Of a DNA stretch of 64,000 nucleotides, positions 22,236 through 41,918 are shown one piece after another. The DNA is from a virus. Where the stretch lies: positions 1 through 64,000 of IMG/VR virus record IMGVR_UViG_3300033233_000027, one strand, 5' to 3'. The notes beneath the pieces are model-generated. The model made no database searches, was not told the DNA's origin, and was given only the letters and a program-made list of their open reading frames with translations. The position numbers were made by a program, and so were the translations under genes. How positions within the stretch are numbered: the first letter of the stretch is position 1; each line of letters opens with the position of its first letter.

Positions 22236-24338
22236 ATGAGACGGCGAAAGTACGAGCGGTTCTCTGAAGACGACAAGGCAGCGATGCTATCGCTGTCGAA
22301 AGAAGGTCTGCGGTCAAAGGAGATCCAGACTCATCTTCCACATCTGCCAACCCAGCGAATCAGCGGATTCCTTCGAATGCACAAGGCCCCAGGAGCGAAT
22401 CCAAATCCTCGATCGACCGTTCTAGTACGAACGACGGCTGAGGCCGCACCGCAAGTCAGGGCCGCTGCTGCCGCAGCCGCTTCTGGTAATGTGCAGGCTT
22501 CATCCAACCCACTTCCGTTTGCTGCTCAACCTACAACCGCAGCGCACCATCAATCGCAGCCATCTGCGGAATATGACTTCCGGCCGACGCAGACCCCGAT
22601 GGTGACGAGCGGAGGAATTCCGGTATCATCTGGTCAGGGTCAGAGACTGGAAGTCGAACGAATCATTCCGCAAGATGGGCTTCTTGGCGTTCACCCGATG
22701 TCGTTCTTGAAAGATGATATCGGTCGTGTTTATGGTTCTGGAACATACAGAATCACGACGCGCTCAAATAGTGGACAAATAATGACCGCAGAAGTTCCTA
22801 TTGCGGCCACCTATGGTCCTCCGCTTTCACCGAAGCGTTATTCTGGGCGAGAAGGACAGCCTGATCGGTCACAACCGAAGCTATGGAACGATCCACAAGA
22901 TCAGCAGTATCGCTTTGAACGCGCAGAGGCGCTTCGCGCTTCTCATAGTCCAGCTGAAGATCTCAAGAACACCGTCCAAGCTACGAAGGAACTCATGACG
23001 CTTGCGAAGGAAAACGGCCAGGACAGTTCTGGCGGTTACGCTAGAGCCATGGAGACGCTGGCTGCCGCCGCATCGCAGCCGAAGTCTCAGGAATCTGGGG
23101 TGCTTGAGAAATGGTTCATTGCGGACGCAGAACGCCGTTCGATAGAGCGCAAAGAATCTGAGGAACGTCGGGAACGCGAACGTCGTGAGGACATGGAGCG
23201 CCGAGATCGTGATCGGAAGGACGACCAGACGCGTTTCGATCAGATAATGGAACTTGATCGCCAGCGGGCTGTGAGTTCCAACAAAGAAAAAGATGACGCA
23301 CACAAGCGAGAAATGGAAAGGCTGAAGGAAGAGAACTCCGCTCGAGTTGCTTGGGAAGCAGAACAGAGAAAAACGCTCCTAGAACTCGAGGCGAAGAAGA
23401 TCGAACTCGTGACCAAGGCGCAAGAGGCTAGGGAGAAGGAACTTGATCGCCGTATTGAAGAAGTAAAAGCTGAGGCAGAGTCTGGCAGGGATTCGATCCA
23501 GGGAGAGCTAGAAAAAGAGCGCGATCACCAGACGGCAATGTTCGATCTTCGGTCAAAGCAACTCGACATACAGGAAAAGTTCCAGAATGAAAAGCTGGAT
23601 ATGCAGCGCCAGCAGATCACTTCCTCTAGTGCGGATAGCGTCCTCTGGGGGACGGTAAAGGATCTGGTAGACAAGGGCTCTAAGGCATTTGAGAGATACA
23701 CGGAGACTGAACAGCTCAAGATGGTTGTCGAAGAGGCTAAAAAGAACGGCGTTAGTCCTGGAACTGTAGCAGACCTCGGGCGGGCAGCCATGGCTGGGAA
23801 TATGCAGCCTGAGGCAAAACACACTTCCACGGGCCAAGCCTCCAATACAAACGGAAATGGGAATGGAAAGGGGGCGGAAGTGGGCCTACTCGACCGATTC
23901 TTCAAGGATCCGATCTTTGCTGAAGTCGTGGAGGAGTGGGGCCTTGCGGTCTCTGTCAAGGCAAAGCCGAGTACATTCGCCAACACTTTCCTAGTCTGGA
24001 TGAACGATCCAGAAAACACGACATACAAGAAGGCGACATCGACCTTTGCTCTGTTCCTTGAGAACAGAGACTGGCCATCGATGTTTGAAGCCATGCAGAG
24101 AAATCTTTCTGCCAAGATCACGGAGCCATTCAAGTCTCCGTATGCGGCTGAATTCTATGAGGCATTCCGCGTCATCGTCGTGGAGAGTACGCGTTATCTC
24201 TACGCGGAGTTCATGCAACAGCGGGCTGACCAAGAGGCTCGTGTTGCGCAAGAAGCGGCAGCGAACAACGGATCTTCTGAACCTGTAGCGGAAGAGTCGT
24301 CTCAGCCCCTGAAGGAAACGGAGCGCATCAGGGCATGA
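22236..24338 (+). CDS. 700-aa protein: N-terminal HTH, low-complexity linker, long E/R/K coiled coil, C-terminal helical domain
   Basis: Start reassigned to MRRRKYERF (SD GAGGG); FSEDDKAAML...GLRSKEIQ..L......ISGFLR; ATGA-coupled to next gene. Confidence 0.85.
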   Translation: MRRRKYERFSEDDKAAMLSLSKEGLRSKEIQTHLPHLPTQRISGFLRMHKAPGANPNPRSTVLVRTTAEAAPQVRAAAAAAASGNVQASSNPLPFAAQPTTAAHHQSQPSAEYDFRPTQTPMVTSGGIPVSSGQGQRLEVERIIPQDGLLGVHPMSFLKDDIGRVYGSGTYRITTRSNSGQIMTAEVPIAATYGPPLSPKRYSGREGQPDRSQPKLWNDPQDQQYRFERAEALRASHSPAEDLKNTVQATKELMTLAKENGQDSSGGYARAMETLAAAASQPKSQESGVLEKWFIADAERRSIERKESEERRERERREDMERRDRDRKDDQTRFDQIMELDRQRAVSSNKEKDDAHKREMERLKEENSARVAWEAEQRKTLLELEAKKIELVTKAQEAREKELDRRIEEVKAEAESGRDSIQGELEKERDHQTAMFDLRSKQLDIQEKFQNEKLDMQRQQITSSSADSVLWGTVKDLVDKGSKAFERYTETEQLKMVVEEAKKNGVSPGTVADLGRAAMAGNMQPEAKHTSTGQASNTNGNGNGKGAEVGLLDRFFKDPIFAEVVEEWGLAVSVKAKPSTFANTFLVWMNDPENTTYKKATSTFALFLENRDWPSMFEAMQRNLSAKITEPFKSPYAAEFYEAFRVIVVESTRYLYAEFMQQRADQEARVAQEAAANNGSSEPVAEESSQPLKETERIRA

Positions 24339-25036
24339 CCGAACACAAAAGGCTGCGGAGGCTTGGCATCGCGATTGATGCCGCCCCACCAGCCTATGGT
24401 GAAGTATTACGGACTCCTCTGGAGGACGACTTCGGGGGCATCCGGTTTGAAGTCGGTCGTGCTGTCCAATACGTAAAGGAAGGTGGCGCAGATCCGCTTG
24501 TGGTTGACACGGCGAGATATTGCGCGATGCTCGCGAGAGATACGGCAGAACAGCTTGGTTTTCCCGTAACTCCTGAGAACGCAAAGTTGATTGACCTGGA
24601 GGGGGTATTCCTTTGGGTCCAGGCCAACTTCGTTTACGTTGATGATCCAACTGGAGTGGAAGTGATGCAGACAGCACCTCGTATGCTCCGTCAGAAGATG
24701 ACGCCGCATGAAGTGCTGGAATGGATGTGGGCTCCGATTCGAGATGGAATGGCTCTTGCCCGCGGTATTGATCCATCGGAATTAAGCTGTCCTGAAGGAA
24801 AAGTGATCGGAGATTGCGAAGAGGCTGCCTGTCTTCTGTTGGCCATGGCTGCCGCTCTTGATATCGGTCCTCTGAAGTTCCGCTTCGGCGGGAATGATGG
24901 CCAACTCCACCATGTTTGGGCTTCTGCTATGGCTGGTGGAGAGTGGCGCGACATGGATGCTACTCAGCGCCAGTTAGGGTTCGATCAGTTTCTGCCATTC
25001 GACCACTTCGATGAACTGGAGGTCGAACTTCCGTGA
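24335..25036 (+). CDS. Transglutaminase-like (papain-fold) Cys-His-Asp enzyme, putative virion maturation protease
   Basis: YVDDP.GVE, GDCEE (Cys), HHVW (His), WRDMDAT (Asp). Confidence 0.88.
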   Translation: MTEHKRLRRLGIAIDAAPPAYGEVLRTPLEDDFGGIRFEVGRAVQYVKEGGADPLVVDTARYCAMLARDTAEQLGFPVTPENAKLIDLEGVFLWVQANFVYVDDPTGVEVMQTAPRMLRQKMTPHEVLEWMWAPIRDGMALARGIDPSELSCPEGKVIGDCEEAACLLLAMAAALDIGPLKFRFGGNDGQLHHVWASAMAGGEWRDMDATQRQLGFDQFLPFDHFDELEVELP

Positions 25037-25653
25037 TCCTAGGAAAATGGTCTGATGGGCCACGCCTCGGCGCGGTTGAGCTGGTTGAGCTAGGCTCAAT
25101 TCGTCGTCACGCCTCCATGGGTGGCTTCCTAGACTTCTTAGGTGGGTTCGCTGGAGAGGTTGCTGGATTCTTCGGGAGTGCTGTTGGCGCTGGGTTGGGA
25201 TTCCTTAAGGATGCGCTGAATGTCGGGCTGAAGCCGCTGATGGATGGGGTTGCGTCTGCCTTCACTGGGCTGGCAGATATCCTTCGGGAGATCCCGCTCA
25301 TCGGGGAAATCGTTGGTGGCCTCATCCTAGTTATCAACGCGGCCATTCAGACGCTGCTCTCTCTTCCGGGGCTCTTGATTGACGCGCTTCCGAAGATTCT
25401 TAAAGGACTGACCAGTTCGTTCTTTGGGGCGTACGGTAAGGATGAGCAGAGTTCAATCCTAAGCACGGTTCTGCCGAAAGTGGCCGCCAGAGCTCCAGAG
25501 CCGATTCGGAATGTCGTCAAGACCACGCTGGCTGAAACTAGGCCAGCGATTGACGGTTCGGTACAGCCACCCGAATCTGCGGGTGGAATTGATCCGCTTG
25601 TAATCGCCGGGGTCTCTGCCGCGGTTGTTGCCGCAGCTCTGATCGCGGCTTGA
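25033..25653 (+). CDS. Membrane protein with amphipathic helices and C-terminal anchor
   Basis: Leader PRLGAVELVELG; ends LVIAGVSAAVVAAALIAA. Confidence 0.85.
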   Translation: MILGKWSDGPRLGAVELVELGSIRRHASMGGFLDFLGGFAGEVAGFFGSAVGAGLGFLKDALNVGLKPLMDGVASAFTGLADILREIPLIGEIVGGLILVINAAIQTLLSLPGLLIDALPKILKGLTSSFFGAYGKDEQSSILSTVLPKVAARAPEPIRNVVKTTLAETRPAIDGSVQPPESAGGIDPLVIAGVSAAVVAAALIAA

Positions 25654-25688: not shown

Positions 25689-26393
25689 ATGGCGGAGAAG
25701 AAGGGGGCGGGCACCAAGCCTGCCGGTTCCCGCCGCGGCGGGAACGTCGTGGTGGATCTCGGCGAGACGATTGACGACGTGATCGACGCCGCAGTCGAAG
25801 CTGGCTACAAACCAAAGCAGGGTTTGGGAGCGGCTGGTAACACGAAGCCAGGTGGGTATCGCCCTGGTTTCCTCGGTTCGAATTTCCGACCTGGTATCGG
25901 ATTCCGTCCGAGCGGTATTCATCCATCCAAGCTGGGTATGGCCCTCAATATCCAGAGGACCGTGGACACGATGAAGGTTTTGGGTGGGTCCATTGCGGGC
26001 ATGGCGTTCAACCGTGTTCTGTATCGAGCCATCCCGAAGGTGTCCACGTCCGTCACGTCGGAGCTGCTGGTCAATGGAGCGGCTGCCGTTCTTGGAGTCG
26101 CGCCCTACTTCCTTTTCAAGAAGGAAGGTCATGGAAGCGATTTCCTCGTCGGATTCGCGATCCCAGGCGTCGTGACATTCGCTGGATCGCTCTTCGACAA
26201 GCTCCTTGGCGCGGTCGCCTCCAGCGTCCTTCCGAAGCCGATGCTGTCTGGCCCGGATGCGTCCCGGCCAGCGACGGACGCGCATCGTGCTTTGGCGGAA
26301 GCCAACCGTACGCTTGACGCGCTCAAGGGCCGGATGGGCCTACAGCGTCAGACGGTTGTGTCTCTGCCACGGGTTCAGGGGGTGGCTTCTTAA
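25689..26393 (+). CDS. Membrane protein with multiple LG/MG motifs, upstream of candidate capsid gene
   Basis: ATG 25689 with SD GGAG; three central hydrophobic segments. Confidence 0.85.
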   Translation: MAEKKGAGTKPAGSRRGGNVVVDLGETIDDVIDAAVEAGYKPKQGLGAAGNTKPGGYRPGFLGSNFRPGIGFRPSGIHPSKLGMALNIQRTVDTMKVLGGSIAGMAFNRVLYRAIPKVSTSVTSELLVNGAAAVLGVAPYFLFKKEGHGSDFLVGFAIPGVVTFAGSLFDKLLGAVASSVLPKPMLSGPDASRPATDAHRALAEANRTLDALKGRMGLQRQTVVSLPRVQGVAS

Positions 26394-26394
26394 T

Positions 26395-26553: not shown

Positions 26554-27312
26554 ATGGGCGAAACGATGCGCGATTACATTCCGCAACGTCCTCAACGTAT
26601 CGGCATTTACGACAACAGCACCGGAAAGGTGACTGAGGCCGTCTATTCCGAGTGCGCTGACCAGACGCAGAGTGTTACTATCGCTTCTGGTACTGGCACG
26701 TACGATGTTACTCTCGAATTTCCCCAGACGCAAAACTCGGACTGCGATGCGACTCTTGGTCATGGAGTGGAGATCTCGTATCTCTCCGGTGGTGGTGCGA
26801 CCGGCATGACGATTGGAGATCTCGCCAAAGTCCTTACTTCGGGCACGATTGAAATCACTCGTGCTGGCCAGAAGTGCGTCGATCAGCGCGAGATGGCTCA
26901 GGCGAATTTCCTTGTTCAGTTCCAGGCTGAAGCTGCGTTGGCTGCTGGCCGCGTGGCTGCTGGATGGAATAATGAGCAGATTTATCGTGCTGGCCAGTGC
27001 ACGCCTATCATGCTCTATACGAATAGGGATGTGATTCTGGTCAGGCTCCGTGGAGCTCAGCCAGATGAAACCCAGGTTGTTGTCGTGAAGCTCATCTTTA
27101 CCCGCTACACGACGCAGCCAACGACTCCTTCCTGCGCACTCCTGCCGCTCGCTATCTTCCAGGGCTCTGCTTTCCCTGTGAAGTTCTACGAGAGTCTCCC
27201 AACCAGGGAAGCGCAGCCTTGGGATGTCGCTGATCTTTCTGGGGCTAACCAGGTGGCTACGCTTACGCATGGGGTTCAGCAGGGTCTTAGCGCGGAGCGT
27301 GGAATCGCGTAA
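26554..27312 (+). CDS. Candidate major capsid protein (beta-rich, jelly-roll-like)
   Basis: 252 aa, no TM, beta-strand pattern, A-rich leader with SD, flanked by large hairpins; the capsid call is inference. Confidence 0.6.
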   Translation: MGETMRDYIPQRPQRIGIYDNSTGKVTEAVYSECADQTQSVTIASGTGTYDVTLEFPQTQNSDCDATLGHGVEISYLSGGGATGMTIGDLAKVLTSGTIEITRAGQKCVDQREMAQANFLVQFQAEAALAAGRVAAGWNNEQIYRAGQCTPIMLYTNRDVILVRLRGAQPDETQVVVVKLIFTRYTTQPTTPSCALLPLAIFQGSAFPVKFYESLPTREAQPWDVADLSGANQVATLTHGVQQGLSAERGIA

Positions 27313-27404: not shown

Positions 27405-28013
27405 ATGACCGAACAACTAAATACAGATATTCCGTTCCTGCGACTAAAGGGGCAGCATGAAGTGCAAGGAGATTGCTTCATACGCCCATCGGACTTCTTT
27501 TTTGCAGAGAGATTCCAAAAGAAGGTAGAGGCACTAAAGAAATCGTCTCCACTCCTTGCTGAGGCGATCTGTTTTGCCCAGGCCTTGGGCCTGATGGAGC
27601 CTGCGGAAGCTCGTAGACCAGGGGCTGGCAATGCAGTAACCAGAACAAGGGTTGGAGTTACGGTTCCTCGAGCGACAGTAAATCCAGCTCAGCCTAATAT
27701 AATCATACCTGGGGTATTTGAAGCGTTCTCTACCTGTCCACCAATGGGCACGTTAGGAATCGCCGGTAAGATTGATGTTATTCCGGCGAATACGACTGCG
27801 ATCAGCTTCGGGCGTGTCTTCTATCAGCATATGATCGTTGGCGTAGGTAAAGATCTCTGTGTGGATTGGAATTTCCCAGACTGCCCAGGTTTTGTCACGA
27901 CGGCAGAAAACTTCTTCATATCCCCTACGGGGATCAGGGTTTTCCTTCAGAATAGGTCTAGGACAGGAGAGGCGCTGTTCTCCGTTGAGGCAGAAATATG
28001 GCCAGTGCTGTGA
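27405..28013 (+). CDS. Beta-rich putative capsid/penton protein
   Basis: 202 aa with beta-rich C-terminal two-thirds. Confidence 0.65.
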   Translation: MTEQLNTDIPFLRLKGQHEVQGDCFIRPSDFFFAERFQKKVEALKKSSPLLAEAICFAQALGLMEPAEARRPGAGNAVTRTRVGVTVPRATVNPAQPNIIIPGVFEAFSTCPPMGTLGIAGKIDVIPANTTAISFGRVFYQHMIVGVGKDLCVDWNFPDCPGFVTTAENFFISPTGIRVFLQNRSRTGEALFSVEAEIWPVL

Positions 28014-28050
28014 TCTTGTTCCGTCGCGCCGATATGAATAAGGTGAGAAA

Positions 28051-28446
28051 ATGGGGGTCGTAAGCGGAGGACCGATACCGTACATGATTCCCACCAGCCA
28101 GGACACGCTGAAGGTGGTTGAGTCGGATGTACCGCTCGCATTTGGCGGCGTGTTTAGTTCTGAGATAACCATCTTCCGTGGGTATTCGGTCTTATGTGCA
28201 TTGGTCATCACCGATCAGTCAACTTTGTTAGAAGTTACTGAACGGTGCGACTCAGACGCAGCAGATTTGAAAGATGGGGTAGTAACTGAGTCTGCATTGA
28301 CCGCAGTGGATCCAGTCACGGGGAAGAATTTCCTCTGCAAGCGATTTGAGCCATGCGGCAAATTCGGGAGTATCACGATCACAAACAAAGGCCTCATCGC
28401 TCAAACTTTCCTGCGACTGTGCGTCTACTTACTCCCTATCCGATAG
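28051..28446 (+). CDS. Small beta-rich (single jelly-roll-like) protein
   Basis: 131 aa with alternating strands. Confidence 0.65.
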   Translation: MGVVSGGPIPYMIPTSQDTLKVVESDVPLAFGGVFSSEITIFRGYSVLCALVITDQSTLLEVTERCDSDAADLKDGVVTESALTAVDPVTGKNFLCKRFEPCGKFGSITITNKGLIAQTFLRLCVYLLPIR

Positions 28447-31536: not shown

Positions 31537-31542
31537 GGAGGA

Positions 31543-32288: not shown

Positions 32289-34046
32289 ATGCCTTACCAG
32301 ACTCCCTATTCACAGCCACCGCCTCAGCAGCCTGGATCTGTTGGGGTTCCGCTTCCTGGGCTAGTTCCGATTGGAACACTAGCAAATGTCCCTACCTATT
32401 TTGTCGGAGTCTCTAAGGCGATGGCCAATGTGGACGCGCTTGTGGCAACACCAGATGGGCAATACAGACGCCCTATTGCTGGAGAACTTGCTGCGGCAGT
32501 CTTCTTATCTAAACCAGGCCAGTCGATGGAGCCAGATGGGTCTGATCTGATTCCCCAGGCCGTTGCGGCAGTTGCTGGAATGAAGCCTCCAGCAACTGCT
32601 GAATCTGCCTCTTGGGCACCTCCATCCTCTCCTAGTTGGTCGTGCGGCTCAGCTTTGTATCCGATCATAGGAGCAGGAGCATCGTTCTCTGTAGCGGATG
32701 GAACTCCAGCGACATGCCCAGATGGATCCGTTGCGGATCGATGTGTGGTTGCTTTCATATCAGGGGATGGTCTTGAGGTATTTCCTAAGGGCTTTTCTTT
32801 CACGCTCATGGCCCCGGTGCAGTGGAATATACAGCAATTCGACTTCATGGCCGCCCAATCCGTTGCCGTACTGTTCCCATCCAATGTCAGTCAGATCGTA
32901 AAAGATGTGCTCTCTACCCGAGGTATGAAGGAGGCGTTCAGAACGAGAGCCCCATCTCCGCTTGGAACAACACCGCCATTTGCTCAATCAATCTACGCAA
33001 TATCAGTTCCTCCAACTCCAGCATTCCACCGCGGGGACAACATAGATGAGATCCCTGTATTGGATATGGAGGAGGTAGAATCGAGATGGAATCAACTTCA
33101 CTCAGTTCTGGATGAAGTTCCGTGGTTCAAGATCGGTTCCTACGACTTGATTTTCGACTGTTCAGGGAATGTGCCTATCGGGACGCTCCGTGATGGGCGG
33201 AAGGTCGTATGGGATGAGCCGAGACTCTACGCTCCAAGCCTGAGCGATTACTTCCCGAAGTCAAAGGCAGAAATACACGCTTCGCTCGCTACGGCGATCG
33301 GTGCTTCCCTTGAAAGCATCTTCGGGTGCGTAGCTTCTAGCCTGAAAGTGAAAGCGGAGCGTGCGGAAAAACAGGGGAAAATGATCGGTACGATTGAAGT
33401 AATCGTCGGTGGTACACTAATGATCTTCGGGGCGATCCCACCAAACTTCACCATGCTCGGGCATGGGGCTGGTCTAGTATTTCCTCAATACGCAAACTGG
33501 ATTGGGATCGTCTCAAAAGCAATGGATACTGCCATCGGATTCGCTTTAGCTGGATTGGGAACAGCTGTCACGTCACTGGTCGAGCAGGTGAATTCTGGAA
33601 TGGTGAAGGATCTGATGGGTCAATTGTCTAAATTGATAGACTCCGGTGTTGGAGATAGCGCAAAGAAACTAATGGAAGCGGCGCTAAGCATCCAATCCAT
33701 TGAGGGAATTTCTGCTCCGTTTCTTTTGTGGACCATCATGGCCCCAAAGCTCGGTCCTGTCCTTGCCATGGGTTCTTCCCTGCTCGGCATAGACGTGGAT
33801 CTGAAGAAGGACGTGATCGATCCGCTCATTGCCAAGGCAGAGGCAAGCGGGATGAGCGTTCCAGACTATCTCAGATCGATGGCGGCTGAGAACGCAGCTG
33901 GTGCGGAGCGGGCCAAGCAAGTTGCCAAGGGTGAAGCCTCTCTGGAAGAATCGGATCTTGGAACTGGGGAAGGACTCGGAACATTCGGAACCGCAGCTCT
34001 TGTCGGTGGAGGATTGGCTGCGGTCTATTTCTCTGGATTGCTGTGA
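32289..34046 (+). CDS. 585-aa membrane-associated virion protein
   Basis: Long ORF, internal hydrophobic helices, C-terminal anchor ALVGGGLAAVYFSGLL. Confidence 0.88.
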   Translation: MPYQTPYSQPPPQQPGSVGVPLPGLVPIGTLANVPTYFVGVSKAMANVDALVATPDGQYRRPIAGELAAAVFLSKPGQSMEPDGSDLIPQAVAAVAGMKPPATAESASWAPPSSPSWSCGSALYPIIGAGASFSVADGTPATCPDGSVADRCVVAFISGDGLEVFPKGFSFTLMAPVQWNIQQFDFMAAQSVAVLFPSNVSQIVKDVLSTRGMKEAFRTRAPSPLGTTPPFAQSIYAISVPPTPAFHRGDNIDEIPVLDMEEVESRWNQLHSVLDEVPWFKIGSYDLIFDCSGNVPIGTLRDGRKVVWDEPRLYAPSLSDYFPKSKAEIHASLATAIGASLESIFGCVASSLKVKAERAEKQGKMIGTIEVIVGGTLMIFGAIPPNFTMLGHGAGLVFPQYANWIGIVSKAMDTAIGFALAGLGTAVTSLVEQVNSGMVKDLMGQLSKLIDSGVGDSAKKLMEAALSIQSIEGISAPFLLWTIMAPKLGPVLAMGSSLLGIDVDLKKDVIDPLIAKAEASGMSVPDYLRSMAAENAAGAERAKQVAKGEASLEESDLGTGEGLGTFGTAALVGGGLAAVYFSGLL

Positions 34047-34059
34047 ACGGAACTTCCAT

Positions 34060-34617
34060 ATGAAACTCGGGGCTGCGGTCGATCCATCCTTCATTGCTGG
34101 ACTGGACGATCTAGCTGACGCCGCTCTCTATGAGGGTGCGCAGGCCTCAATGGTGTACGCAAAGCAAGTGGAGGCTTATCTCTCCAATCAATCTTCTACG
34201 GTAGCTGTCCCAGGAGTAACGCCGCCACTCTATTACCTAGAGGCTCGGCCTCATCTGAACGAAGTTCGGATGATCCTGGTGGAATGGATGTCACGTTTAG
34301 CGGAAACGGCGAAGTCCTACGGATCGCAACGTCGTGCTTTCGAGGCCATCACCCTGGCTTCGTCGCTACCTAGCATTCCGCAGCCAAAAGATACCATCGG
34401 ACAACTAGCGTCCGTCATCACTCCTGAGCATGCGGCGATCAGTGCCCAGTTAGTCGCATCAGAGACAGGGGCGCTCCGTGATGCGGTGGCGGGGCTTCAG
34501 GCGCGACTCGCATCTGCACAAGGAGCTATTGCAGCTCCGATTGAAGAACCGATTAGCACGGCGACAATTGGCCTGGCCGCAGGACTTGTCGCCATAGTCC
34601 TTTGGGCGATATCATAA
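34060..34617 (+). CDS. Tail-anchored helical protein
   Basis: Start MKLGAAV; ends IGLAAGLVAIVLWAIS. Confidence 0.8.
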   Translation: MKLGAAVDPSFIAGLDDLADAALYEGAQASMVYAKQVEAYLSNQSSTVAVPGVTPPLYYLEARPHLNEVRMILVEWMSRLAETAKSYGSQRRAFEAITLASSLPSIPQPKDTIGQLASVITPEHAAISAQLVASETGALRDAVAGLQARLASAQGAIAAPIEEPISTATIGLAAGLVAIVLWAIS

Positions 34618-34631
34618 GCGAGGAGGAAAAT

Positions 34632-35003
34632 ATGGCAGCAGGAGCCAGTTCGATTTCATGGGGAAAGAAGATACCACTTGGGGCGGCAAACCAGAAGAAG
34701 GCTGGAGAGCCTTTACGGGTCGTCCCGCCCGCGCCTAGTGTTGCACTGATCCCTATGGTTTCACTTGGAACAACAACGCATCCGCTGACTCTTGGCAAAG
34801 CGGAGACTCCGATTCAGGCAGCGCAGATATCGGCTCCTCCCGTTGAGATGGGGGCGGCTCACGGGGAAGCTGTTGTCCTAGAATCTGTCTGGACTGTGTC
34901 CATCGTTGCTGTTGATCCAAGCGGCAAAAAGTACGTTGCTGAATTCGATGCAGTCTTTCCAGAGGGCTCCTGCTTGACTGCATTGACTACCAAGAAACAG
35001 TAG
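34632..35003 (+). CDS. Protein with four LG/MG motifs and C-terminal beta domain
   Basis: SD AGGAGG; IPLG, VSLG, LTLG, VEMG. Confidence 0.8.
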   Translation: MAAGASSISWGKKIPLGAANQKKAGEPLRVVPPAPSVALIPMVSLGTTTHPLTLGKAETPIQAAQISAPPVEMGAAHGEAVVLESVWTVSIVAVDPSGKKYVAEFDAVFPEGSCLTALTTKKQ

Positions 35004-35014
35004 AGATTACCGAC

Positions 35015-35317
35015 GTGAATGCGATACTTGGAGCTGATGCCGTGATAGGATTCGCCCAATCCTGGCCTGGATGGGCTGAAAAGGCCGGCATCTACTCCTT
35101 GGCGCATGAGTTGCAATCGGAAATCGATAGGGGCGCGTGGGGGAGGGATGGAGAAAGATCGGCGCGGATAGGGAGGATCCTCGGGCTCGCAGAAGCGAGG
35201 CTTGAGGCGGCAGTTGCGAAAGAAAGTTCGGCTGGTACAGAGCCCTCAATGGAGGGCATGGCAACCATGATGTCAATGCTCAGCAGCGCAGTCTGGATCT
35301 GCGTTCTCGTGCTCTGA
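35015..35317 (+). CDS. Small tail-anchored protein
   Basis: MNAILG leader; hydrophobic C-terminus. Confidence 0.65.
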   Translation: MNAILGADAVIGFAQSWPGWAEKAGIYSLAHELQSEIDRGAWGRDGERSARIGRILGLAEARLEAAVAKESSAGTEPSMEGMATMMSMLSSAVWICVLVL

Positions 35318-35337
35318 TTCGTCTCTGGGGAGGATAC

Positions 35338-35442
35338 ATGAGTAATATGCCTGACGGAGGGATCCCGCTCAAAGAGGGAGCCACGCTCGGCTCCTGTTCT
35401 ACGAAGCGCAAAGATGGGATGAAAGTCTCATCGATGGGCTGA
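35338..35442 (+). CDS. 34-aa peptide ending SSMG
   Basis: Not in ORF track: MSNMPDGGIPLKEGATLGSCSTKRKDGMKVSSMG; SD GGGGAGG; fills the gap. Confidence 0.6.
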   Translation: MSNMPDGGIPLKEGATLGSCSTKRKDGMKVSSMG

Positions 35443-35445
35443 GGG

Positions 35446-36159
35446 ATGGCTATGGCAAGTATCCCCTCCGGTGGAGGTGGACTAAGGCTTGAGTCGTATG
35501 CGGCTCCAAAACAGAGCGTCCAGATTCAGCAGAGGTCGATGGCTAAAAACTCTTCTGAGGACTCGTGCCCAGAATGCGGAATCGGTAATGGTTGCGGGTG
35601 CTTGGCCAAGGTAACTATGGGCAAGGCGAAGTGTGACGGAAAATGGGGGGAGGGCGGGGCAGTACCGGAGATCAGTAGAAAAGTGCCGATTATAGTTCGA
35701 GCCAAGCCGATGCCTGGAACCGAACGGAGCGGAATCAACTACCCTCCGATGGGTCAGCCATCGAAGAAAGGTATCGCGCTAGGACAGAATGCTTACGGCT
35801 TCAGTCATGCGGCCACAACGGAAGAAGTTACATCGCTCCTGCGGTCCCTAGAAAAGGCACTCGCAGATGTGGCCGCTGCGGCTGACGGACAGAACGCCCC
35901 AGCTTGTGTCCGCGACATCATGGCGGGATCGTATCTGCTGGCTAAGAAGACCGCAGAAAAGATGCGCAACTTCATCATGGCAAATGTGCCAAAAGTAGAG
36001 TGGCTATTGACTGATGGTGAGGCGGCAGTTGCTGGTGAAGTCCTGAAATGTGCAGCAACCTTGCAGTCATCCAGCACTAAGATGGAATCGGATGACACTG
36101 GGATGGCTGCTGCCATCGCTCTTGGGCTTGGGGCCCTCGTTCTTTTCTTCGTCGTGTGA
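35446..36159 (+). CDS. Tail-anchored protein with Cys cluster
   Basis: CPECG..NGCGC; TMG, PMG-Q, ALG-Q; ends AAAIALGLGALVLFFVV. Confidence 0.85.
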   Translation: MAMASIPSGGGGLRLESYAAPKQSVQIQQRSMAKNSSEDSCPECGIGNGCGCLAKVTMGKAKCDGKWGEGGAVPEISRKVPIIVRAKPMPGTERSGINYPPMGQPSKKGIALGQNAYGFSHAATTEEVTSLLRSLEKALADVAAAADGQNAPACVRDIMAGSYLLAKKTAEKMRNFIMANVPKVEWLLTDGEAAVAGEVLKCAATLQSSSTKMESDDTGMAAAIALGLGALVLFFVV

Positions 36160-36473
36160 TGGGAGAAAGTTCCATGGGTCAACAACTGCGTCTCATGAAT
36201 AATAGGATACTTGGACAGGAAGCCCTACGGATCGGTCCTATTCAGATCAAGACGCCAAGCCCAGCCATCTCCGAACTTCAGAAAGCAGCTGTTCAGGAGT
36301 CTACGGACAAAGTAGAGATGGTGACTAGGGTAACATCAGCATTGACGAACCATTTTGAGGAATTGTCTGCGTTCTTGCTCGGAACGGACACGACCGCTGA
36401 GGTGGTGAAACAGGCGACTCAGAGCCTGACCTCTGCCGTTGACAAGAGAGACGCTGTGATCGGATCTGTCTGA
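36159..36473 (+). CDS. Helical protein with SMG-Q and ILG-Q motifs
   Basis: TGATG coupling. Confidence 0.7.
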   Translation: MGESSMGQQLRLMNNRILGQEALRIGPIQIKTPSPAISELQKAAVQESTDKVEMVTRVTSALTNHFEELSAFLLGTDTTAEVVKQATQSLTSAVDKRDAVIGSV

Positions 36474-36508
36474 TGAAAAAAAGCCTACCGCCCTGACAGC
36501 TTGGAGCG

Positions 36509-36775
36509 ATGAAACGTCCAACGGGTTCCGTTGGAGTATCCAAGACTTTCAAGGTGTCCAAGAAGATCAGAGGAGCAGAGGTGTCCGCTCCTGGCTTGGG
36601 AAGGGCCCTAGTTGCGGTAGTGAAGGTATCGAAATATAGATATGTGGTGGCGGCTCCGAAGGAGCTCGGAGGAGCGAAGTCCGTTCCTGCTGACTCTTTC
36701 ACGGATGCGCTGCACTGGACCGTGTCGCAAATGAACACAAAGGCGAAGAGAGAGGCGAAGGGGAAAAAACGATGA
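36509..36775 (+). CDS. Small basic protein
   Basis: Lys-rich; SD GGAG. Confidence 0.7.
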   Translation: MKRPTGSVGVSKTFKVSKKIRGAEVSAPGLGRALVAVVKVSKYRYVVAAPKELGGAKSVPADSFTDALHWTVSQMNTKAKREAKGKKR

Positions 36776-37245
36776 ATCAACCAATGCCAATCATGCTCCG
36801 TCCGTCCGGTATACGACTTCCAGTCATGCTTCCATCTACGGTAAGGTCCTCAGCTAACCCGATTATCAGGTCCGCAGCGCGGCCACCAGCTCTGGCTGGT
36901 GTCAAGCTCGGACAGGCATGGAAAGAAGCAGGCCTCCTTGACTTTCCTATATTTGCCATTGCCCGAGATGGCGGTGCCACCATGTTGGGTCTCTTGGTGG
37001 CCATGCAGCATCGGGGTATCAATACAGTCATGGGCGTAATCGGCCTTGTGACTGGAGCTCTCGGTGGGATTGGATTGGCGAATGACTTGTGGAAAGTAGC
37101 ATTTGATAAGCCGCTCATCGGAATGGAATCAAAAGATTTTGGAGCCCTCTTCATCACCGCGGGCGTTGTAGGAGCCCTCGGCTATCTCATGTTCGGAAAC
37201 CCAGGATCGACAGCCTCAAGGGCCCTCAAGAAGGTGACTGCGTGA
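36772..37245 (+). CDS. Three-TM membrane protein with Pro/Arg leader
   Basis: Leader ends GVKLG-Q. Confidence 0.8.
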   Translation: MNQPMPIMLRPSGIRLPVMLPSTVRSSANPIIRSAARPPALAGVKLGQAWKEAGLLDFPIFAIARDGGATMLGLLVAMQHRGINTVMGVIGLVTGALGGIGLANDLWKVAFDKPLIGMESKDFGALFITAGVVGALGYLMFGNPGSTASRALKKVTA

Positions 37246-37994
37246 TCCAAAGAACCACCCTGCCGATCCGTCTGGCCAGACCGAAGATGGCGATGCCGGC
37301 TTTGCTTGGGTTCGTTCCCCCGAAATCACATCCACAGTTAGGTGCCGGACTCATCTCTGACCTACTTGGGGTGGATGTCCCAAAAATAGGAGTAGCGGCG
37401 ATCTTGGCTGCTGGAGGCGTAGGAGCCTTGTTCGCTACTAAGATACTTCCTGAACCATTCAATACAGTAGCCGCTATCGGTGGCGTTGGCTTACTGGGTA
37501 TTTCAATATACGAGTTGATCGATTCCTTTGGTGGTCCATCGGAAGCATCAAAAATACAAAGCGGTGAGACCGTGGATCTCACCACGCATCCGAGGGTAAC
37601 TCCGCAGGAGGTTCAGGATAAAAAGGTAGACGCTCGCTTCATTGAGCCACTTGAGAATGCGAATGTCTTGAAAAATCCGTTCAGATCTGGCGCATACGTA
37701 CCAACGAAGCTGATCGTAACAAATGATACAGGCAGATTGGTCACGGTTCGCCTTCTGTTCCAGGTAGTTGAGGGTGATGGATCTGTAAACTCCTATCACG
37801 AAGACAGGATGGCCGATCAAGGAACAAACACAAGAACATTTGATGCCCCGATAACTTCATACAGTGCTTTCTCGTGGCCACCCTGGCAACCAACAAGTGC
37901 GTGTGTCCAGGTTCGTGCAACGACGATAGAAAATGGGGTGGAGATTAAATATCCAGGTGGATGGGACGATCAGCGGTGCTTCAATGTCATATAG
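37242..37994 (+). CDS. Two-TM protein with C-terminal beta-sandwich
   Basis: Leader PIRLARP...PQLG-A. Confidence 0.8.
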   Translation: MIQRTTLPIRLARPKMAMPALLGFVPPKSHPQLGAGLISDLLGVDVPKIGVAAILAAGGVGALFATKILPEPFNTVAAIGGVGLLGISIYELIDSFGGPSEASKIQSGETVDLTTHPRVTPQEVQDKKVDARFIEPLENANVLKNPFRSGAYVPTKLIVTNDTGRLVTVRLLFQVVEGDGSVNSYHEDRMADQGTNTRTFDAPITSYSAFSWPPWQPTSACVQVRATTIENGVEIKYPGGWDDQRCFNVI

Positions 37995-39278: not shown

Positions 39279-39650
39279 ATGAAGGTATCGGCTAGGCTTG
39301 GCACAGGTGGATGCCCCTCTGGGAAGATTCGCAGGAAGGCCTACACGACGCGTAAGGGCGTTCATGTCAAGTCATCATGCGTTCCTGACAAGGGAACGAA
39401 AGGAAAGGGTCCAAAAACTCTTCCAACACCGAGGCCTGGCTCGCTCGAGGGCTGGAAGAAGGATCTCCCATCAACGGAGCGCCACGCCATCCTGCACGAT
39501 ATCACCAAGCGCGAAGGGTGCGGCGTAGCCATAAAAAAGCTGACGCTTCTCCAGAACATCACGGCTGATGCGGCAACGAAGCGCACAGCCAAGACAGACA
39601 AGAAGTGGCTGAGAGGCCAGGGATTCTGCGAGCTTGCGAGGGGAAAATGA
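39279..39650 (+). CDS. Basic protein resembling a giant-virus (DUF5771-like) family
   Basis: CPSGKIRRKAYTTRKG..VKSSC..DKG..GKGPK...G.L......RH..L......G.....KKL.......KTDKKWL; family recalled from memory. Confidence 0.65.
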   Translation: MKVSARLGTGGCPSGKIRRKAYTTRKGVHVKSSCVPDKGTKGKGPKTLPTPRPGSLEGWKKDLPSTERHAILHDITKREGCGVAIKKLTLLQNITADAATKRTAKTDKKWLRGQGFCELARGK

Positions 39651-39904
39651 AAACGAAGCTCGGGGCCATAGAACTGGTGGAACTCGGTCGCGCCTCAAAG
39701 CGCGTCTGCGCTAGGGCAGTCAAGAGCGGTAAGCGGTGGGTCGTGCGCACCTCAGATGCGGGTTCCGGTGCCGGCAGGAACTGGATTGAGGCTCCGTGCC
39801 TTCGCAGCAAGAAGAAGTCGAAGGCGCGTACGTTCCTGACTCGCTCCATCGCAGAAGCCCATGCGCGAAAGTGCGGAATCATGCTGTGCCGAAAAGGAAA
39901 ATGA
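39647..39904 (+). CDS. Small basic protein
   Basis: Start MKTKLGAIELVELG in ATGA overlap. Confidence 0.75.
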   Translation: MKTKLGAIELVELGRASKRVCARAVKSGKRWVVRTSDAGSGAGRNWIEAPCLRSKKKSKARTFLTRSIAEAHARKCGIMLCRKGK

Positions 39905-39946: not shown

Positions 39947-40726
39947 ATGCAAGCGAGACCACTGGGGTATTATGGGCGTATCAAGCCTTCACCAATCAGG
40001 ATCCCGCAAGGTGCCCGCTCAGCGGCACTTGGAGCTGCGATCATTCTGGATCAGCAACTTGCCGCAAGCGTAATCCAGCGATGGAATGGGGCGAATCAGG
40101 GAAAGAACGAAGCCCTAGCTGTACTCACTAACTTCCCGTACGATACAGCTCCAGTAGGTTCATATTCGCAACTGGATGGGGCCGTTACCAACTTTGAGAC
40201 GCTCAACGGATCGGCTGGAATCGTAAGCCTTGTAGGAAAAGCTACCCTAGTTCTTCAAAACAACGCACCCTCCTTCACGTCACAGGAAGAACTACAGGCT
40301 CTTAATGCGCTGGAGAACATGGGGCATCTGCTACAGAAAGCAGCTCAGGCGCTGATGAGTATTCCTCCTCCGACCCCAGCCCAACCGCCACAAGGCATTC
40401 TCCTGTCGGCCGCAGAGGCTAATGGATACAACGCTGCCGTGCAGTCGCTTCTCGAGGCTATCGGACTGCTTGGAACCCCAGCCATCTTGGTGCCGCATAA
40501 GGCTGCATTGCAGGCGCTTTCTGGCAACTTGCAGACATCCCCAGTCTATGTGCCACCCAACTTTGCCTCCACAATCCAGGCGGCTTCTGATGCGGTTACG
40601 ACTGAGAGGAATAGACAGGCTGCGTTGGCCCAAACAGGACAGACTCCAGTTGCTGGAGATCAGACCGCGCTCTACGTTGGCGGTGGCGTTGCGCTTACTG
40701 CCTTGCTCCTTATTGCGTTTGCCTAA
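39947..40726 (+). CDS. Tail-anchored helical protein
   Basis: Leader RPLG...AALG-A; ends LYVGGGVALTALLLIAFA. Confidence 0.85.
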   Translation: MQARPLGYYGRIKPSPIRIPQGARSAALGAAIILDQQLAASVIQRWNGANQGKNEALAVLTNFPYDTAPVGSYSQLDGAVTNFETLNGSAGIVSLVGKATLVLQNNAPSFTSQEELQALNALENMGHLLQKAAQALMSIPPPTPAQPPQGILLSAAEANGYNAAVQSLLEAIGLLGTPAILVPHKAALQALSGNLQTSPVYVPPNFASTIQAASDAVTTERNRQAALAQTGQTPVAGDQTALYVGGGVALTALLLIAFA

Positions 40727-40771
40727 ACCTATGATGCGGGCTATGCCCGCAATATGAATTGGAGAATAGCG

Positions 40772-41428
40772 ATGAATCAGCCGATCAGACTCGCACGACA
40801 ATTTTCTCCCATCGGAAAGTCGATCCGCCTTGCTGGTGCCCGTCTTGGGAATCCAGATACATTCCTGTCGGATTCTCAGGCATCTGCGGTCAGGCAGGGC
40901 GCACAGACGCTTCTGCAAGCGATCGGGGCGTTGGGAAATCCAGCTAGTCTTTCTTCCTGGAAAAACTGGCTTGAGACCTTCTCGTACAGGCTTCAGCAGC
41001 CACCAGTTTATGTGGCAGATGACTACACCTCCACTCTCCAGGGGGCGTCCGATGCAATTGCGGCAGAGAACGCTAAGCAGGGTGGCCAGGTCCCGACGAT
41101 GTTCCTCTACGCCGAAGAGGCGGCTCCATGGTCTGAGGCAGCTAAAGCGATTCTAGCTGAGATGGGAAATATCGGTAATCCAGCATCCTTGGCCCAGCAT
41201 AGGAGTAATCTGGAATCCCTAGTCTCGCAGTTCTCAGATGTCAAGCAGGATACCACGGGTCGAAATTATGTCGTGGTTCGATCTGATTATGGCCAGAGGA
41301 TTGAAAACGCCAGAGCTGCTACGCAGCAGGCAAAGGCTTCTCCAACCGCCTCAACTGGTCCATCTACGGTCGAAGTGGCTGGTGTAATTGGAGTGATCGG
41401 CCTCGGCCTCTGGCTCGCGTTGGGTTAA
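40772..41428 (+). CDS. Tail-anchored protein with two copies of a helical domain
   Basis: Leader PIRLAR...ARLG-N; GNPASL twice; ends VAGVIGVIGLGLWLALG. Confidence 0.85.
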   Translation: MNQPIRLARQFSPIGKSIRLAGARLGNPDTFLSDSQASAVRQGAQTLLQAIGALGNPASLSSWKNWLETFSYRLQQPPVYVADDYTSTLQGASDAIAAENAKQGGQVPTMFLYAEEAAPWSEAAKAILAEMGNIGNPASLAQHRSNLESLVSQFSDVKQDTTGRNYVVVRSDYGQRIENARAATQQAKASPTASTGPSTVEVAGVIGVIGLGLWLALG

Positions 41429-41480
41429 AAACTGCGGCACACCAATGGTAGGCAGCGTCTGAATAGCGAGGAGAGTAAAG

Positions 41481-41918
41481 TTGCCTGATACGGCCCCGCA
41501 TCCAGCAAGATATCTGGATGCTACTAAGGAGGAGGCCCAGGCCTTCACTACTGCCGCCAAGCATGTGCTGGACTATGTGGCGCAGCATCTGGACAGTTCC
41601 CACGTCGCCTGCGACCCAGGAATTGCCGTATGGGCCAATAGGCTCTCTGCCGCTGTGGCACGCCTAGACCAGGATAAATCTGGCTTCTACAAGATCCCGT
41701 CAGAGGCTATTGAGGCCATTGCCAGAATATCAGAATGCGCCACAGCCATCTCCAGACACGTCGATCTGGTACGTCTGATTGCCTTCGTGGGCAGTTCTGC
41801 CGGCACATTCGGGCTTTTGGCCCTGAAACTGCCCATTCTGGCCTGGGTTGGCTACGGGGCCGCAGTGGCAGCCACGGTAATCGGCCCTTCCGTACGCATA
41901 CCGCTCCTAGAGGATTGA
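41481..41918 (+). CDS. Membrane protein
   Basis: SD GAGGAG; C-terminal TM pair. Confidence 0.7.
   Translation: MPDTAPHPARYLDATKEEAQAFTTAAKHVLDYVAQHLDSSHVACDPGIAVWANRLSAAVARLDQDKSGFYKIPSEAIEAIARISECATAISRHVDLVRLIAFVGSSAGTFGLLALKLPILAWVGYGAAVAATVIGPSVRIPLLED

What the first reader, a model, noticed from the sequence alone, without database searches (positions are those of the whole stretch)
24335..41918. Candidate Gly-motif leader and protease maturation system for a large set of virion proteins
Seen: the operon opened by a transglutaminase-like Cys-His-Asp enzyme encodes many otherwise unrelated proteins whose basic, Pro/Arg-rich N-terminal leaders end in (L/M/I)G, mostly followed by Q or A. 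Examples: PRLG-A (25033), KQGLG-A and SKLG-M (25689), YQMG-Q (30739), YRLG-Q (31543), SKLG-K (32089), MKLG-A (34060), IPLG-A (34632), AILG-A (35015), PMG-Q and ALG-Q (35446), SMG-Q and ILG-Q (36159), VKLG-Q (36772), PQLG-A (37242), ARLG-T (39279), TKLG-A (39647), AALG-A (39947), ARLG-N (40772), plus KMG-Q (10888) and KRIG-A (6523) outside it. The enzyme itself starts RRLG-I. The folded-looking domain usually begins right after the motif, and leaders share PIRLAR (37242, 40772) or (L/F)RPSG (555, 25689, 36772). About ten proteins end in a hydrophobic helix running to the last residue. Established: adenovirus AVP, poxvirus I7 and ASFV S273R mature virion precursors by cleaving after Gly motifs. 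Inference: a bacterial virus uses a transglutaminase-fold protease and a (L/M/I)G-(Q/A) leader to recruit and process tail-anchored membrane and core proteins. Alternative: the enzyme cross-links Gln-rich fibres to Lys-rich proteins.
Basis: partly seen in the sequence, partly recalled or inferred. Interest (0 to 1): 0.9.

Follow-up and report, generated by a model that had tools for sequence, protein, structure and literature searches.

The report
Shared Leu-Gly tag beside viral transglutaminase-fold enzyme
In an uncharacterised 78-kb virus and its soil relatives, many unrelated membrane and basic proteins start with a short basic tag ending in Leu-Gly and sit beside a transglutaminase-fold cysteine enzyme; this looks like a tag-and-enzyme maturation system, but cleavage has not been shown.

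Summary
In 30 operon proteins, LG is the most over-represented dipeptide in residues 2-62 (37 seen, 16 expected, z 5.9). It is at background later in the same proteins (30 vs 29.9) and in the other 90 genes. The result survives uncurated starts and removal of paralogues, and 15 codon pairs encode the sites.

The enzyme (24335-25036) has a transglutaminase/papain-like fold (Z 10.7) with conserved Cys161-His193-Asp208.

Relatives keep the same gene order. The enzyme family itself carries an N-terminal LG tag (23 of 34, 9.5 expected). Its downstream neighbour always starts with an invariant LGA.EL.ELG.

In a 236-kb relative, 379 genes with no BLAST match to the operon proteins show [LMI]GQ in residues 2-42 22 times against 6.2 expected. 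There the tag sits just ahead of Pfam thioredoxin domains.

So the tag is real and lineage-wide. That the enzyme cuts after Leu-Gly is the best reading (about 0.4) but is unproven. Rivals are an uncleaved assembly signal and glutamine-directed cross-linking.

The Q/A preference after Gly is weak in this genome but strong for Q in the relative. The virion role is inferred; no capsid or packaging hallmark gene was found.

The scan noted this stretch before on the same genome only.

The parts
22236..24338 (+). About 700-aa protein with an N-terminal HTH-like segment and a long charged coiled coil; conserved upstream partner of the enzyme
   Evidence: Syntenic homologues lie directly upstream of the enzyme in 27 locus ORFs (E down to 1.7e-45; gene order). 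No Pfam or PHROG family.
24335..25036 (+). Transglutaminase-fold Cys-His-Asp enzyme with its own N-terminal tag (RRLG, residues 8-11); residues 1-31 are predicted disordered
   Evidence: Pfam Transglut_core scores only E 0.019. Alignment A1 shows conserved GDC(D/E)E, LHHVW and D208. AF2 model pLDDT 82. Z 10.7 to 3isr, TG3, FXIII, PNGase and LapG. Remote profile hits pass the PF01841 cut-off.
25033..25653 (+). Tagged membrane protein whose start overlaps the enzyme's stop by 4 bp. The leader carries RLG-A (11-14), ELG (19-21) and SMG-G (28-31). The conserved LDFL..G.F domain follows, then a C-terminal anchor.
   Evidence: Alignment A4 of 15 orthologues: the invariant columns are L12 G13 A14 E16 L17 E19 L20 G21. 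A hydrophobic-Gly pair is kept just before the mature domain.
25689..26393 (+). Conserved protein with DLG-E, GLG-A and KLG-M sites and (G)YRPG-type repeats
   Evidence: 20 homologues in the loci; GNV.VDLGE is conserved.
26554..27312 (+). Beta-rich conserved protein; weak candidate for a capsid protein
   Evidence: About 20% identical to the conserved 240-aa PEYAALINP family (A2). The model has only pLDDT 45. Its best matches are jelly-roll capsid proteins at Z 7.2 or below. This is a hint only.
27405..28446 (+). Two further conserved module proteins (202 aa and 131 aa). The 131-aa domain is fused to long fibre-like proteins in relatives.
30745..32043 (+). Two paralogous tail-anchored proteins. 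They share the leader MQ.R.L..AGR.LG.IP......Y..GQ.DYG.
   Evidence: Pairwise alignment: the leader and the C-terminal domain are conserved, and 30745 has a 100-aa Pro-rich insert between them. C-terminal anchors.
32089..32229 (+). 46-aa, very basic (+17) protein with SKLG-K near its start
   Evidence: (GGAGGA lies upstream; a GC-rich hairpin follows the stop).
32289..37994 (+). Run of tagged, mostly tail-anchored or membrane proteins, starting at 32289, 34060, 34632, 35015, 35452, 36174, 36509, 36772 and 37242
   Evidence: Sites listed. Anchors. No Pfam families. 36772 has no homologue in 5.8 billion proteins.
39279..39904 (+). Two small basic proteins. 39647 starts MKTKLGAIELVELG, the same tag as the otherwise unrelated 25033.
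   Evidence: the tag occurs exactly twice in the genome.
39947..41428 (+). Two tail-anchored proteins with leaders of the type PIR(I/L)..GAR..LG
44699..45361 (-). Full-length paralogue of the enzyme that has lost the catalytic Cys (GDSDD) and His (LHYVW); a pseudo-enzyme
   Evidence: Cys-less paralogues are tandem in L019, L022, L023 and L026, and fused in P0019.

Best explanation
A short N-terminal tag (a few basic residues, then Leu/Met/Ile-Gly, often followed by Gln or Ala) marks many otherwise unrelated proteins of one morphogenesis-like operon. These are tail-anchored membrane proteins, small basic proteins, the enzyme itself and its inactive paralogue.

The transglutaminase-fold Cys-His-Asp enzyme encoded at the head of this gene run recognises the tag and acts as an endopeptidase. 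It would cut after Gly, with Leu in the hydrophobic P2 pocket typical of papain-like enzymes. This would remove leaders of 4 to about 50 residues during or after assembly. Before removal the leaders would guide or restrain the proteins. The enzyme probably works together with the Cys-less paralogue.

Shown: the tag, its position, its conservation, the enzyme's fold and triad, and their co-occurrence. Inferred: binding of the tag by the enzyme, the bond that is cut, the timing, and the virion location.
For: Position-specific enrichment:
- LG 37 vs 16.1 in residues 2-62 and 30 vs 29.9 afterwards. No enrichment in the other 90 genes.
- Selection is at protein level: 15 codon pairs.

Enzyme:
- Transglutaminase/papain-like fold, Z 10.7, including known or putative proteases (3isr, 3kd4, LapG, CPR-C4).
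- D160, H192 and D208 are invariant; C161 and H193 are kept in every member except the Cys-less window paralogue, across relatives down to 38% identity.
- Inteins are inserted exactly at the catalytic Cys in six family members, which marks that site as essential.

Co-occurrence:
- All 30 metagenomic loci that reach the next gene keep the tagged neighbour with invariant LGA.EL.ELG. A hydrophobic-Gly pair also sits at the leader/mature-domain boundary, while the residue after Gly varies (Q, A, I, T, L, G, K, P).
- The enzyme family's own N-terminus carries the tag in 23 of 34 members against 9.5 expected.
- The same tag is grafted onto unrelated proteins 25033 and 39647.

Independent genome:
- In the 236-kb relative G001, [LMI]GQ occurs 22 times vs 6.2 expected in residues 2-42 of 379 genes with no BLAST match to the operon proteins. 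It is at background later in those proteins.
- There the tag lies in a 22-26-residue extension ahead of complete Pfam Thioredoxin and DUF2188 domains.

Specificity pattern:
- Specificity lies on the non-prime side (P2 Leu, P3 Lys/Arg), as expected for papain-like proteases (established knowledge).
- In the fused active-inactive protein P0019 the tag (RGLG-RA) lies at the domain junction, like a polyprotein site.
Against: - There are no proteomic or biochemical data; cleavage is not shown.
- The fold does not separate proteases from transamidases, amidases or non-enzymes.
- Gln right after Leu-Gly is strongly enriched in G001, which also fits a Gln-directed transglutaminase.
- The most conserved part of the 25033 family is the leader itself. 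This fits a functional signal at least as well as a discarded propeptide.
- Some leaders would lose only 3-6 residues.
- Among 26 relatives' ORFs without homology to the window, LG as a whole was not enriched (13 vs 12.4); only [LMI]GQ was (4 vs 1.0).
Confidence: 0.4

Rival explanations
1. The tag is an assembly or targeting signal that is not cut by this enzyme. It would dock proteins, including the enzyme, onto a scaffold, membrane patch or shell protein. The enzyme has another substrate.
For: - The leader segment LGA.EL.ELG is the most conserved part of its protein family.
- The enzyme and pseudo-enzyme carry the tag too.
- The tag is modular, appearing on unrelated proteins.
- In phage 80alpha the shared N-terminal sequence is needed for assembly, whereas its cleavage is dispensable (PMC5744158).
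Against: - It does not explain why a conserved Cys enzyme, with a start/stop overlap to the first tagged gene, always sits beside the tagged genes.
- It does not explain why a hydrophobic-Gly pair is kept exactly at the leader/domain boundary.
Confidence: 0.25
2. The enzyme is a true transglutaminase or Gln amidase. The Gln that follows Leu-Gly in a flexible N-terminal tag is the acyl donor, and it is cross-linked to lysines of the Lys-rich basic proteins or the shell. This would staple membrane, core and coat together.
For: - [LMI]GQ is enriched near N-termini: 6 vs 1.2 in the window, 8 vs 1.6 in related loci and 22 vs 6.2 in G001.
- Fold matches to TG2, TG3 and FXIII are as good as those to proteases.
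- Lys-rich small proteins are encoded in the operon.
- N-terminal flexible Gln donor sites are typical of transglutaminase substrates (established knowledge).
Against: - Gln is not conserved at orthologous sites. The 25033-family junction has Q, A, I, T, L, G, K or P.
- The enzyme family's own tag rarely has Gln.
- In the window, most N-terminal LG sites are not followed by Q.
- The constant feature is Leu-Gly with a basic P3.
Confidence: 0.2
3. The motif is a chance or compositional effect, since LG is a common dipeptide, or an artefact of how gene starts were chosen.
For: - LG is common.
- Paralogues inflate counts.
Against: - 0 of 2000-3000 composition-matched shuffles reach the observed counts. 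L and G are not individually enriched in the leaders.
- The result holds with uncurated starts and without paralogues.
- It was replicated in a distant genome on genes with no detectable homology.
Confidence: 0.03
4. The tags are signals for a host system: Sec or lipoprotein signal peptides, prepilin-type class III signals cut after Gly, or double-glycine leaders cut by a C39 transporter.
For: Short basic leaders ending in Gly resemble prepilin leaders. ELIELG faintly resembles the ELxxIxGG of double-glycine leaders (my own recollection of those motifs).
Against: - No hydrophobic helix follows the sites: mean hydropathy of +1..+18 is 1.23 or less at all 21 sites, and Glu at +5 occurs once.
- No hydrophobic core precedes the sites.
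- The only Walker A protein in the genome is DnaB, so there is no ABC exporter.
- The virus encodes its own adjacent Cys enzyme.
Confidence: 0.05

Closest known systems
Adenovirus protease AVP and its precursor set (pIIIa, pVI, pVII, pVIII, p-mu, pTP, L1 52/55k)
   Same: One viral cysteine enzyme and a short hydrophobic-x-Gly motif, (M/I/L)XGG-X or (M/I/L)XGX-G, on many unrelated capsid and basic core precursors (PMC4246237). Here too the marked proteins include small, very basic proteins and membrane-active proteins.
   Different: AVP is an adenain (clan CE) with His-Glu-Cys order, in a eukaryotic virus. Here the enzyme has a transglutaminase fold with Cys-His-Asp order, the motif is basic-Leu-Gly, the context looks bacterial (Shine-Dalgarno sites), and cleavage is unproven.
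Staphylococcus phage 80alpha capsid and scaffold proteins cut by host protease Prp
   Same: A conserved N-terminal sequence is shared by non-homologous structural proteins. A dedicated cysteine protease removes 13-14 residues. The sequence matters for assembly (PMC5744158).
   Different: That protease is a host enzyme with another fold, the cut is Phe-Ala, and only two or three proteins carry the tag. Here the enzyme is virus-encoded and about twenty proteins carry the tag.
T4 gp21 with capsid-targeting sequences, and phiKZ gp175 (prohead proteases of tailed phages)
   Same: N-terminal leaders target internal proteins to the assembling particle and are then removed at a short motif (established knowledge).
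   Different: Those are serine proteases of the herpesvirus assemblin type that cut after Glu, in viruses with HK97 capsids and terminases. None of those hallmark genes was found here.
Bacterial transglutaminase-like cysteine proteases (LapG) and putative proteases 3isr and 3kd4
   Same: Same fold and triad (Z 9.3-10.7). LapG is a site-specific endopeptidase that cuts at small residues (established knowledge).
   Different: No sequence-level membership. The Pfam hit is below threshold and a PDB profile search is empty. The context here is viral and structural, and there is a helical N-terminal domain.
Protein-cross-linking transglutaminases (FXIII, TG2, spore-coat Tgl)
   Same: Same catalytic core. 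Reactive glutamines in flexible N-terminal segments (established knowledge).
   Different: Gln is not conserved at orthologous tag sites.

Membership tests
Transglutaminase-like superfamily (Pfam PF01841 core, papain-like clan) | Alpha/beta core with the catalytic Cys at a helix start and His and Asp on following strands | tested here: met
   AF2 model pLDDT 82. The top 50 VIA rows are all of this superfamily, Z 8.6-10.7, covering residues 31-233.
Transglutaminase-like superfamily (Pfam PF01841 core, papain-like clan) | Conserved Cys, His and Asp in the motifs G.C..A, H.W and D.T | tested here: met
   GDC(D/E)E, LHHVW and (D/S)D.T are conserved in 17 active homologues. They are lost only in the paralogue.
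Transglutaminase-like superfamily (Pfam PF01841 core, papain-like clan) | Score above Pfam's gathering cut-off | tested here: not met
   15.7 bits against a cut-off of 23. The link is transitive: the family profile reaches proteins at E 1e-8 to 1e-11, of which 9 of the 10 scanned pass PF01841.
Viral maturation protease (functional class) | Endopeptidase activity on virion precursors at a defined motif | not testable with these tools
   No proteomics or assay is available. The only evidence is the motif's position, its conservation and its co-occurrence with the enzyme.
Adenain / Ulp1-like clan CE proteases (AVP, poxvirus I7, ASFV S273R) | Catalytic order His, Glu/Asp, Cys and the adenain fold | tested here: not met
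   The order here is Cys161, His193, Asp208. The adenain order is from established knowledge.
Prohead serine proteases of tailed phages (HK97/T4 type) | Assemblin-like Ser-His enzyme next to portal and an HK97-fold capsid gene | tested here: not met
   The enzyme has a Cys triad and a transglutaminase fold. No Phage_capsid or Terminase_6N match in G000 or G001, although the controls did match.
Class III (prepilin-type) signal peptides | Short basic leader, Gly at -1, then a hydrophobic helix of about 20 residues with Glu at +5 | tested here: not met
   Leaders are basic and end in Gly, but the next 18 residues have mean hydropathy of 1.23 or less at all 21 sites, and Glu at +5 occurs once.
Double-glycine leaders with C39 peptidase exporters | GG, GA or GS at -2/-1 and a C39-ABC transporter | tested here: not met
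   The residue at -2 is Leu, Met or Ile. The only Walker A protein in the genome is DnaB.
Transglutaminase Gln-donor tags | A conserved reactive Gln in a flexible segment | tested here: inconclusive
   Gln after Leu-Gly is enriched but is not conserved at orthologous sites.
Jelly-roll-capsid, membrane-containing tailless viruses (PRD1/P23-77-like) | Jelly-roll major capsid protein and an FtsK/A32-type packaging ATPase | tested here: inconclusive
   The model of 26554 has pLDDT 45, and its jelly-roll capsid matches reach only Z 7.2. No Pox_A32 match and no second P-loop protein.

The most novel reading that the evidence does not exclude
The transglutaminase-fold enzyme, paired with its Cys-less paralogue, is a tag-directed transpeptidase rather than a simple protease. 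It would form a thioester at the tag (at Gly, or at the Gln next to it) and resolve it onto lysines. Tail-anchored membrane proteins and basic core proteins would then be covalently stapled into the particle. This would be an enzyme-made chainmail and assembly code in a virus lineage that lacks every known capsid and packaging hallmark.
Probability: 0.12. Interest if true: 0.9.

Novelty: new variant of a known kind. Interest (0 to 1): 0.74.

Why it matters
Leader-directed proteolytic maturation is known for tailed phages (serine proteases, cuts after Glu) and for eukaryotic large DNA viruses (adenain-type proteases, cuts at Gly). I found no report of a transglutaminase-fold enzyme in this role, and three literature searches gave nothing.

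Here a simple sequence rule (a basic N-terminus ending in Leu-Gly within about 40 residues) picks out a set of about twenty otherwise unannotatable proteins. It does so in a virus lineage of 66 to over 236 kb from soils and sediments, where almost every gene is an orphan and no capsid, portal or packaging gene can be recognised.

If the enzyme reads the tag, the tag becomes a handle for defining the particle's proteome from sequence alone. It would also be a second, independent origin of Gly-motif virion maturation, in a virus whose context looks bacterial. The system is small and easy to test in E. coli.

Tried and rejected
The 86-kb and 66-kb contigs of the closest relatives (P0003, P0006) could therefore not be read.
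- Viral contigs and genome contigs gave no relative of the enzyme or of 26554 by protein patterns. GenBank phages gave no tblastn match.
- The genome search could not draw relatives for a virus record or reach the metagenome loci.
- The co-fold of the enzyme (residues 28-233) with the 25033 leader (residues 1-48) gave no verdict: score 0.00, controls not run. It counts neither for nor against binding.
- The ESM Atlas lookup for 27405 was uninformative; its model has pLDDT 0.33.
- PDB profile searches with A1, A2 and A3 gave nothing below E 1.
- Pfam and PHROGs gave no families for the operon proteins except a response-regulator receiver.
- 36772 has no homologue in 5.8 billion proteins.
- Literature searches for a transglutaminase-like maturation protease in membrane-containing or tailless viruses, or one with inteins, found nothing relevant.
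- Rejected readings: a DNA-level motif, prepilin or Sec signals, a C39/ABC leader system, and an artefact of start choice.
- I first took the two-stretch hits of 500-650 aa for fused enzyme pairs. Six of them are intein insertions. P0019 is a true fused pair, and P0036, P0064 and P0074 also read as an inactive domain followed by an active one.

Full report
**Setting.** The window is the first 64 kb of a single 77,684-bp virus record. Its first ~120 bases recur at the far end. IMG/VR classes it as having direct terminal repeats and as 100% complete. A self-trained codon model gives about 120 genes. A plus-strand block runs from 15.4 to 42.4 kb, flanked by minus-strand blocks. Almost nothing has a family. 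Of the 30 proteins in the stretch that I scanned against Pfam, and the 10 also scanned against PHROGs, only a response-regulator receiver domain (28749-29240) is clear.

**The observation.** I set gene starts from Shine-Dalgarno sites and tested 30 proteins between 24335 and 41918.

- [LMI]G[QA] lies in the first 60 residues of 14 proteins, against 4.3 expected from shuffles of those same residues. None of 2000 shuffles reaches 14. The other 90 genes show 9 against 9.5.
- A scan of all dipeptides, with no motif assumed, ranks LG first in residues 2-62 (37 vs 16.1, z 5.9). After residue 62 LG is exactly at expectation (30 vs 29.9).
- With uncurated longest-ORF starts the count is 35 vs 15.0. 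With one member of each paralogue pair removed it is 31 vs 14.2.
- The excess is largest in residues 2-21 and fades by about residue 80.
- Fifteen codon pairs encode the sites. Leu and Gly are not individually enriched in the leaders.
- Ten operon proteins end in a hydrophobic helix at the very C-terminus.

Three details need correcting. Arg and Lys are enriched and Glu is depleted in the first 40 residues, but Pro is not enriched. The position before Leu is often Lys or Arg (p 0.003), whereas Q/A after Gly is not significantly commoner than at downstream LG sites in this genome. The conserved module begins one gene upstream, at 22236.

**The enzyme.** Pfam gives only a sub-threshold Transglut_core hit. 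Seventeen homologues align with conserved GDC(D/E)E, LHHVW and Asp208. The AF2 model (pLDDT 82; residues 1-31 disordered) matches only members of the transglutaminase superfamily. The top scores are Z 10.7 to the putative protease 3isr and to TG3, followed by FXIII, TG2, PNGase, LapG, the Pei isopeptidases and CPR-C4. A profile search finds 462 representatives. Nine of ten distant representatives scanned pass the PF01841 cut-off. Fold and triad are therefore established. The chemistry (protease, transamidase or amidase) is not.

Six family members carry an intein inserted exactly at the catalytic Cys, which is a sign that this site is essential. Paralogues that have lost the Cys recur. One is unlinked in this genome (44699-45361), they are tandem in L019, L022, L023 and L026, and the pair is fused in P0019.

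**Relatives.** One metagenome scan gave 32 soil and sediment loci. They keep the order: about 750-aa HTH/coiled-coil protein, enzyme, 25033 homologue, 25689 homologue, a 240-aa beta-rich protein, 27405 homologue, 28051 homologue.

- The gene after the enzyme always begins, after 2-17 variable residues, with (R/Q)LGA(I/E)ELIELG. These are the invariant columns of the whole family.
- Next comes a variable stretch with RRPFL, then a hydrophobic-Gly pair immediately before the conserved LDFL..GSFL domain. The residue after that Gly varies.
- In the window the same tag heads an unrelated small basic protein (39647).
- The enzyme family's own N-terminus has [LMI]G within residues 2-28 in 23 of 34 non-redundant members, against 9.5 expected.
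- The pseudo-enzymes start MRGLG or MSSLG.

**An independent genome.** A DNA pattern for the tag found IMG/VR record G001. It is 236,090 bp, estimated 90% complete, and its enzyme is about 35% identical to the window's. I fetched it whole.

- Among 379 of its genes with no BLAST match to the window's operon proteins, [LMI]GQ occurs 22 times in residues 2-42 against 6.2 expected (0 of 2000 shuffles). It occurs 7 vs 8.6 in residues 43-103 and 13 vs 11.4 beyond.
- Two of the tagged proteins are tail-anchored thioredoxins. Their Pfam domains start at residues 23 and 27, at profile positions 2 and 4, so the tag lies in a 22-26-residue extension ahead of a complete, known fold. A DUF2188 protein shows the same layout.
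- Among the few non-homologous ORFs of the shorter loci the replication is weak. LG is 13 vs 12.4 and [LMI]GQ is 4 vs 1.0, and three of five tail-anchored proteins carry it.

**Reading.** The tag is a real, lineage-wide N-terminal signal that travels with a transglutaminase-fold enzyme. I favour proteolytic removal after Gly, at about 0.4, for four reasons:

- The constant features lie on the non-prime side (basic residue, Leu, Gly), while the residue after Gly drifts at orthologous sites.
- A hydrophobic-Gly pair marks leader/domain boundaries.
- The tag sits at the junction of a fused enzyme pair.
- Papain-like enzymes typically read a hydrophobic P2.

This would work like adenovirus AVP, which cuts (M/I/L)XGG-X or (M/I/L)XGX-G in capsid and basic core precursors (PMC4246237). 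It also resembles the shared N-terminal sequence that Prp cuts on phage 80alpha proteins (PMC5744158). The enzyme is not a member of either family.

Two rivals remain. The first is an uncleaved docking signal (0.25); it is supported by the leader being the best-conserved part of its family and by the 80alpha precedent that the sequence matters more than its cleavage. The second is Gln-directed cross-linking (0.2); it is supported by the strong Gln excess after Leu-Gly, above all in G001. Chance, a DNA motif, host prepilin or Sec signals and C39 leaders are rejected.

**Limits.** No cleavage data exist. Whether these are virion proteins is inferred from conserved order, membrane anchors, fibre fusions and a weak jelly-roll hint from a model with pLDDT 45. 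The co-fold gave no verdict.

Noticed in passing
proteins P0025, P0029, P0032, P0034, P0056, P0072: Relatives of the enzyme carry an intein of about 350-400 residues inserted exactly at the catalytic Cys. In five the sequence runs GDC-intein, and the four complete ones end HN/KN-C(D/E)E. In P0072 the insert follows GDCDEAC and ends HN-S. Some contain a homing-endonuclease-like middle part.
   Followed up: partly
window 44699-45361 (-); loci L019, L022, L023, L026; P0019: Cys-less (and His-less) paralogues of the enzyme recur. One is unlinked here, they are tandem in four relatives, and the pair is fused in P0019. This suggests an enzyme/pseudo-enzyme pair.
   Followed up: partly
window 3637-4194, 4638-4943, 5873-6109, 11824-12327 (all -); genome 68263-69861 (-): At least eight small acidic proteins with unrelated bodies start with nearly the same nine residues, MAGEMSW.P. 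This is a second, different N-terminal tag in the same genome.
   Followed up: no
L035:17609-18700 (G001): Two tandem tail-anchored thioredoxins (CxxC) with the Leu-Gly tag in the 236-kb relative. They may be a particle-associated redox pair.
   Followed up: partly
whole genome G000; G001: No terminase, HK97-type capsid or A32-type ATPase family was found. The only Walker A motif in an ORF of 100 aa or more that looks genuine is in DnaB (16535-17857). How the DNA is packaged is open. Several very basic small proteins (32089, 36509, 39279, 39647) might condense it.
   Followed up: partly
window 1513-2565, 62305-63177, 63282-64142 (-); genome ends: Three collagen-like GXY proteins share a Gly-rich N-terminal segment. 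The terminal repeat of the record lies inside a GXY repeat, so the ends could be an assembly artefact of that repeat.
   Followed up: no
genome 70220-74380 (-), beyond the window: A 1386-aa protein that, by eye, looks like several glycosyltransferase-like and methyltransferase-like modules. L002 has a homologous start (MPTAGIKVLIIGRLFRLPREYE).
   Followed up: no
window 28749-29240 (+): A response-regulator receiver domain (Pfam E 1e-21) is encoded in the middle of the structural-looking operon.
   Followed up: no
window 44266-44337 (-), 57089-57160 (-): tRNA-Gln(UUG) and tRNA-Ile(UAU) genes. The tRNA-Gln lies about 360 bp from the pseudo-enzyme gene.
   Followed up: no
window 29588-29830 (+): A small protein with a lipoprotein-type signal (ALAICAVLSFAGC-S). 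It is the only classical signal peptide I noticed in the operon.
   Followed up: no
window 42434-42733 (-): A roughly 92-99-aa protein ending PEIVAG-VVI. A Gly-directed cysteine enzyme in the same genome could process it. Not examined.
   Followed up: no
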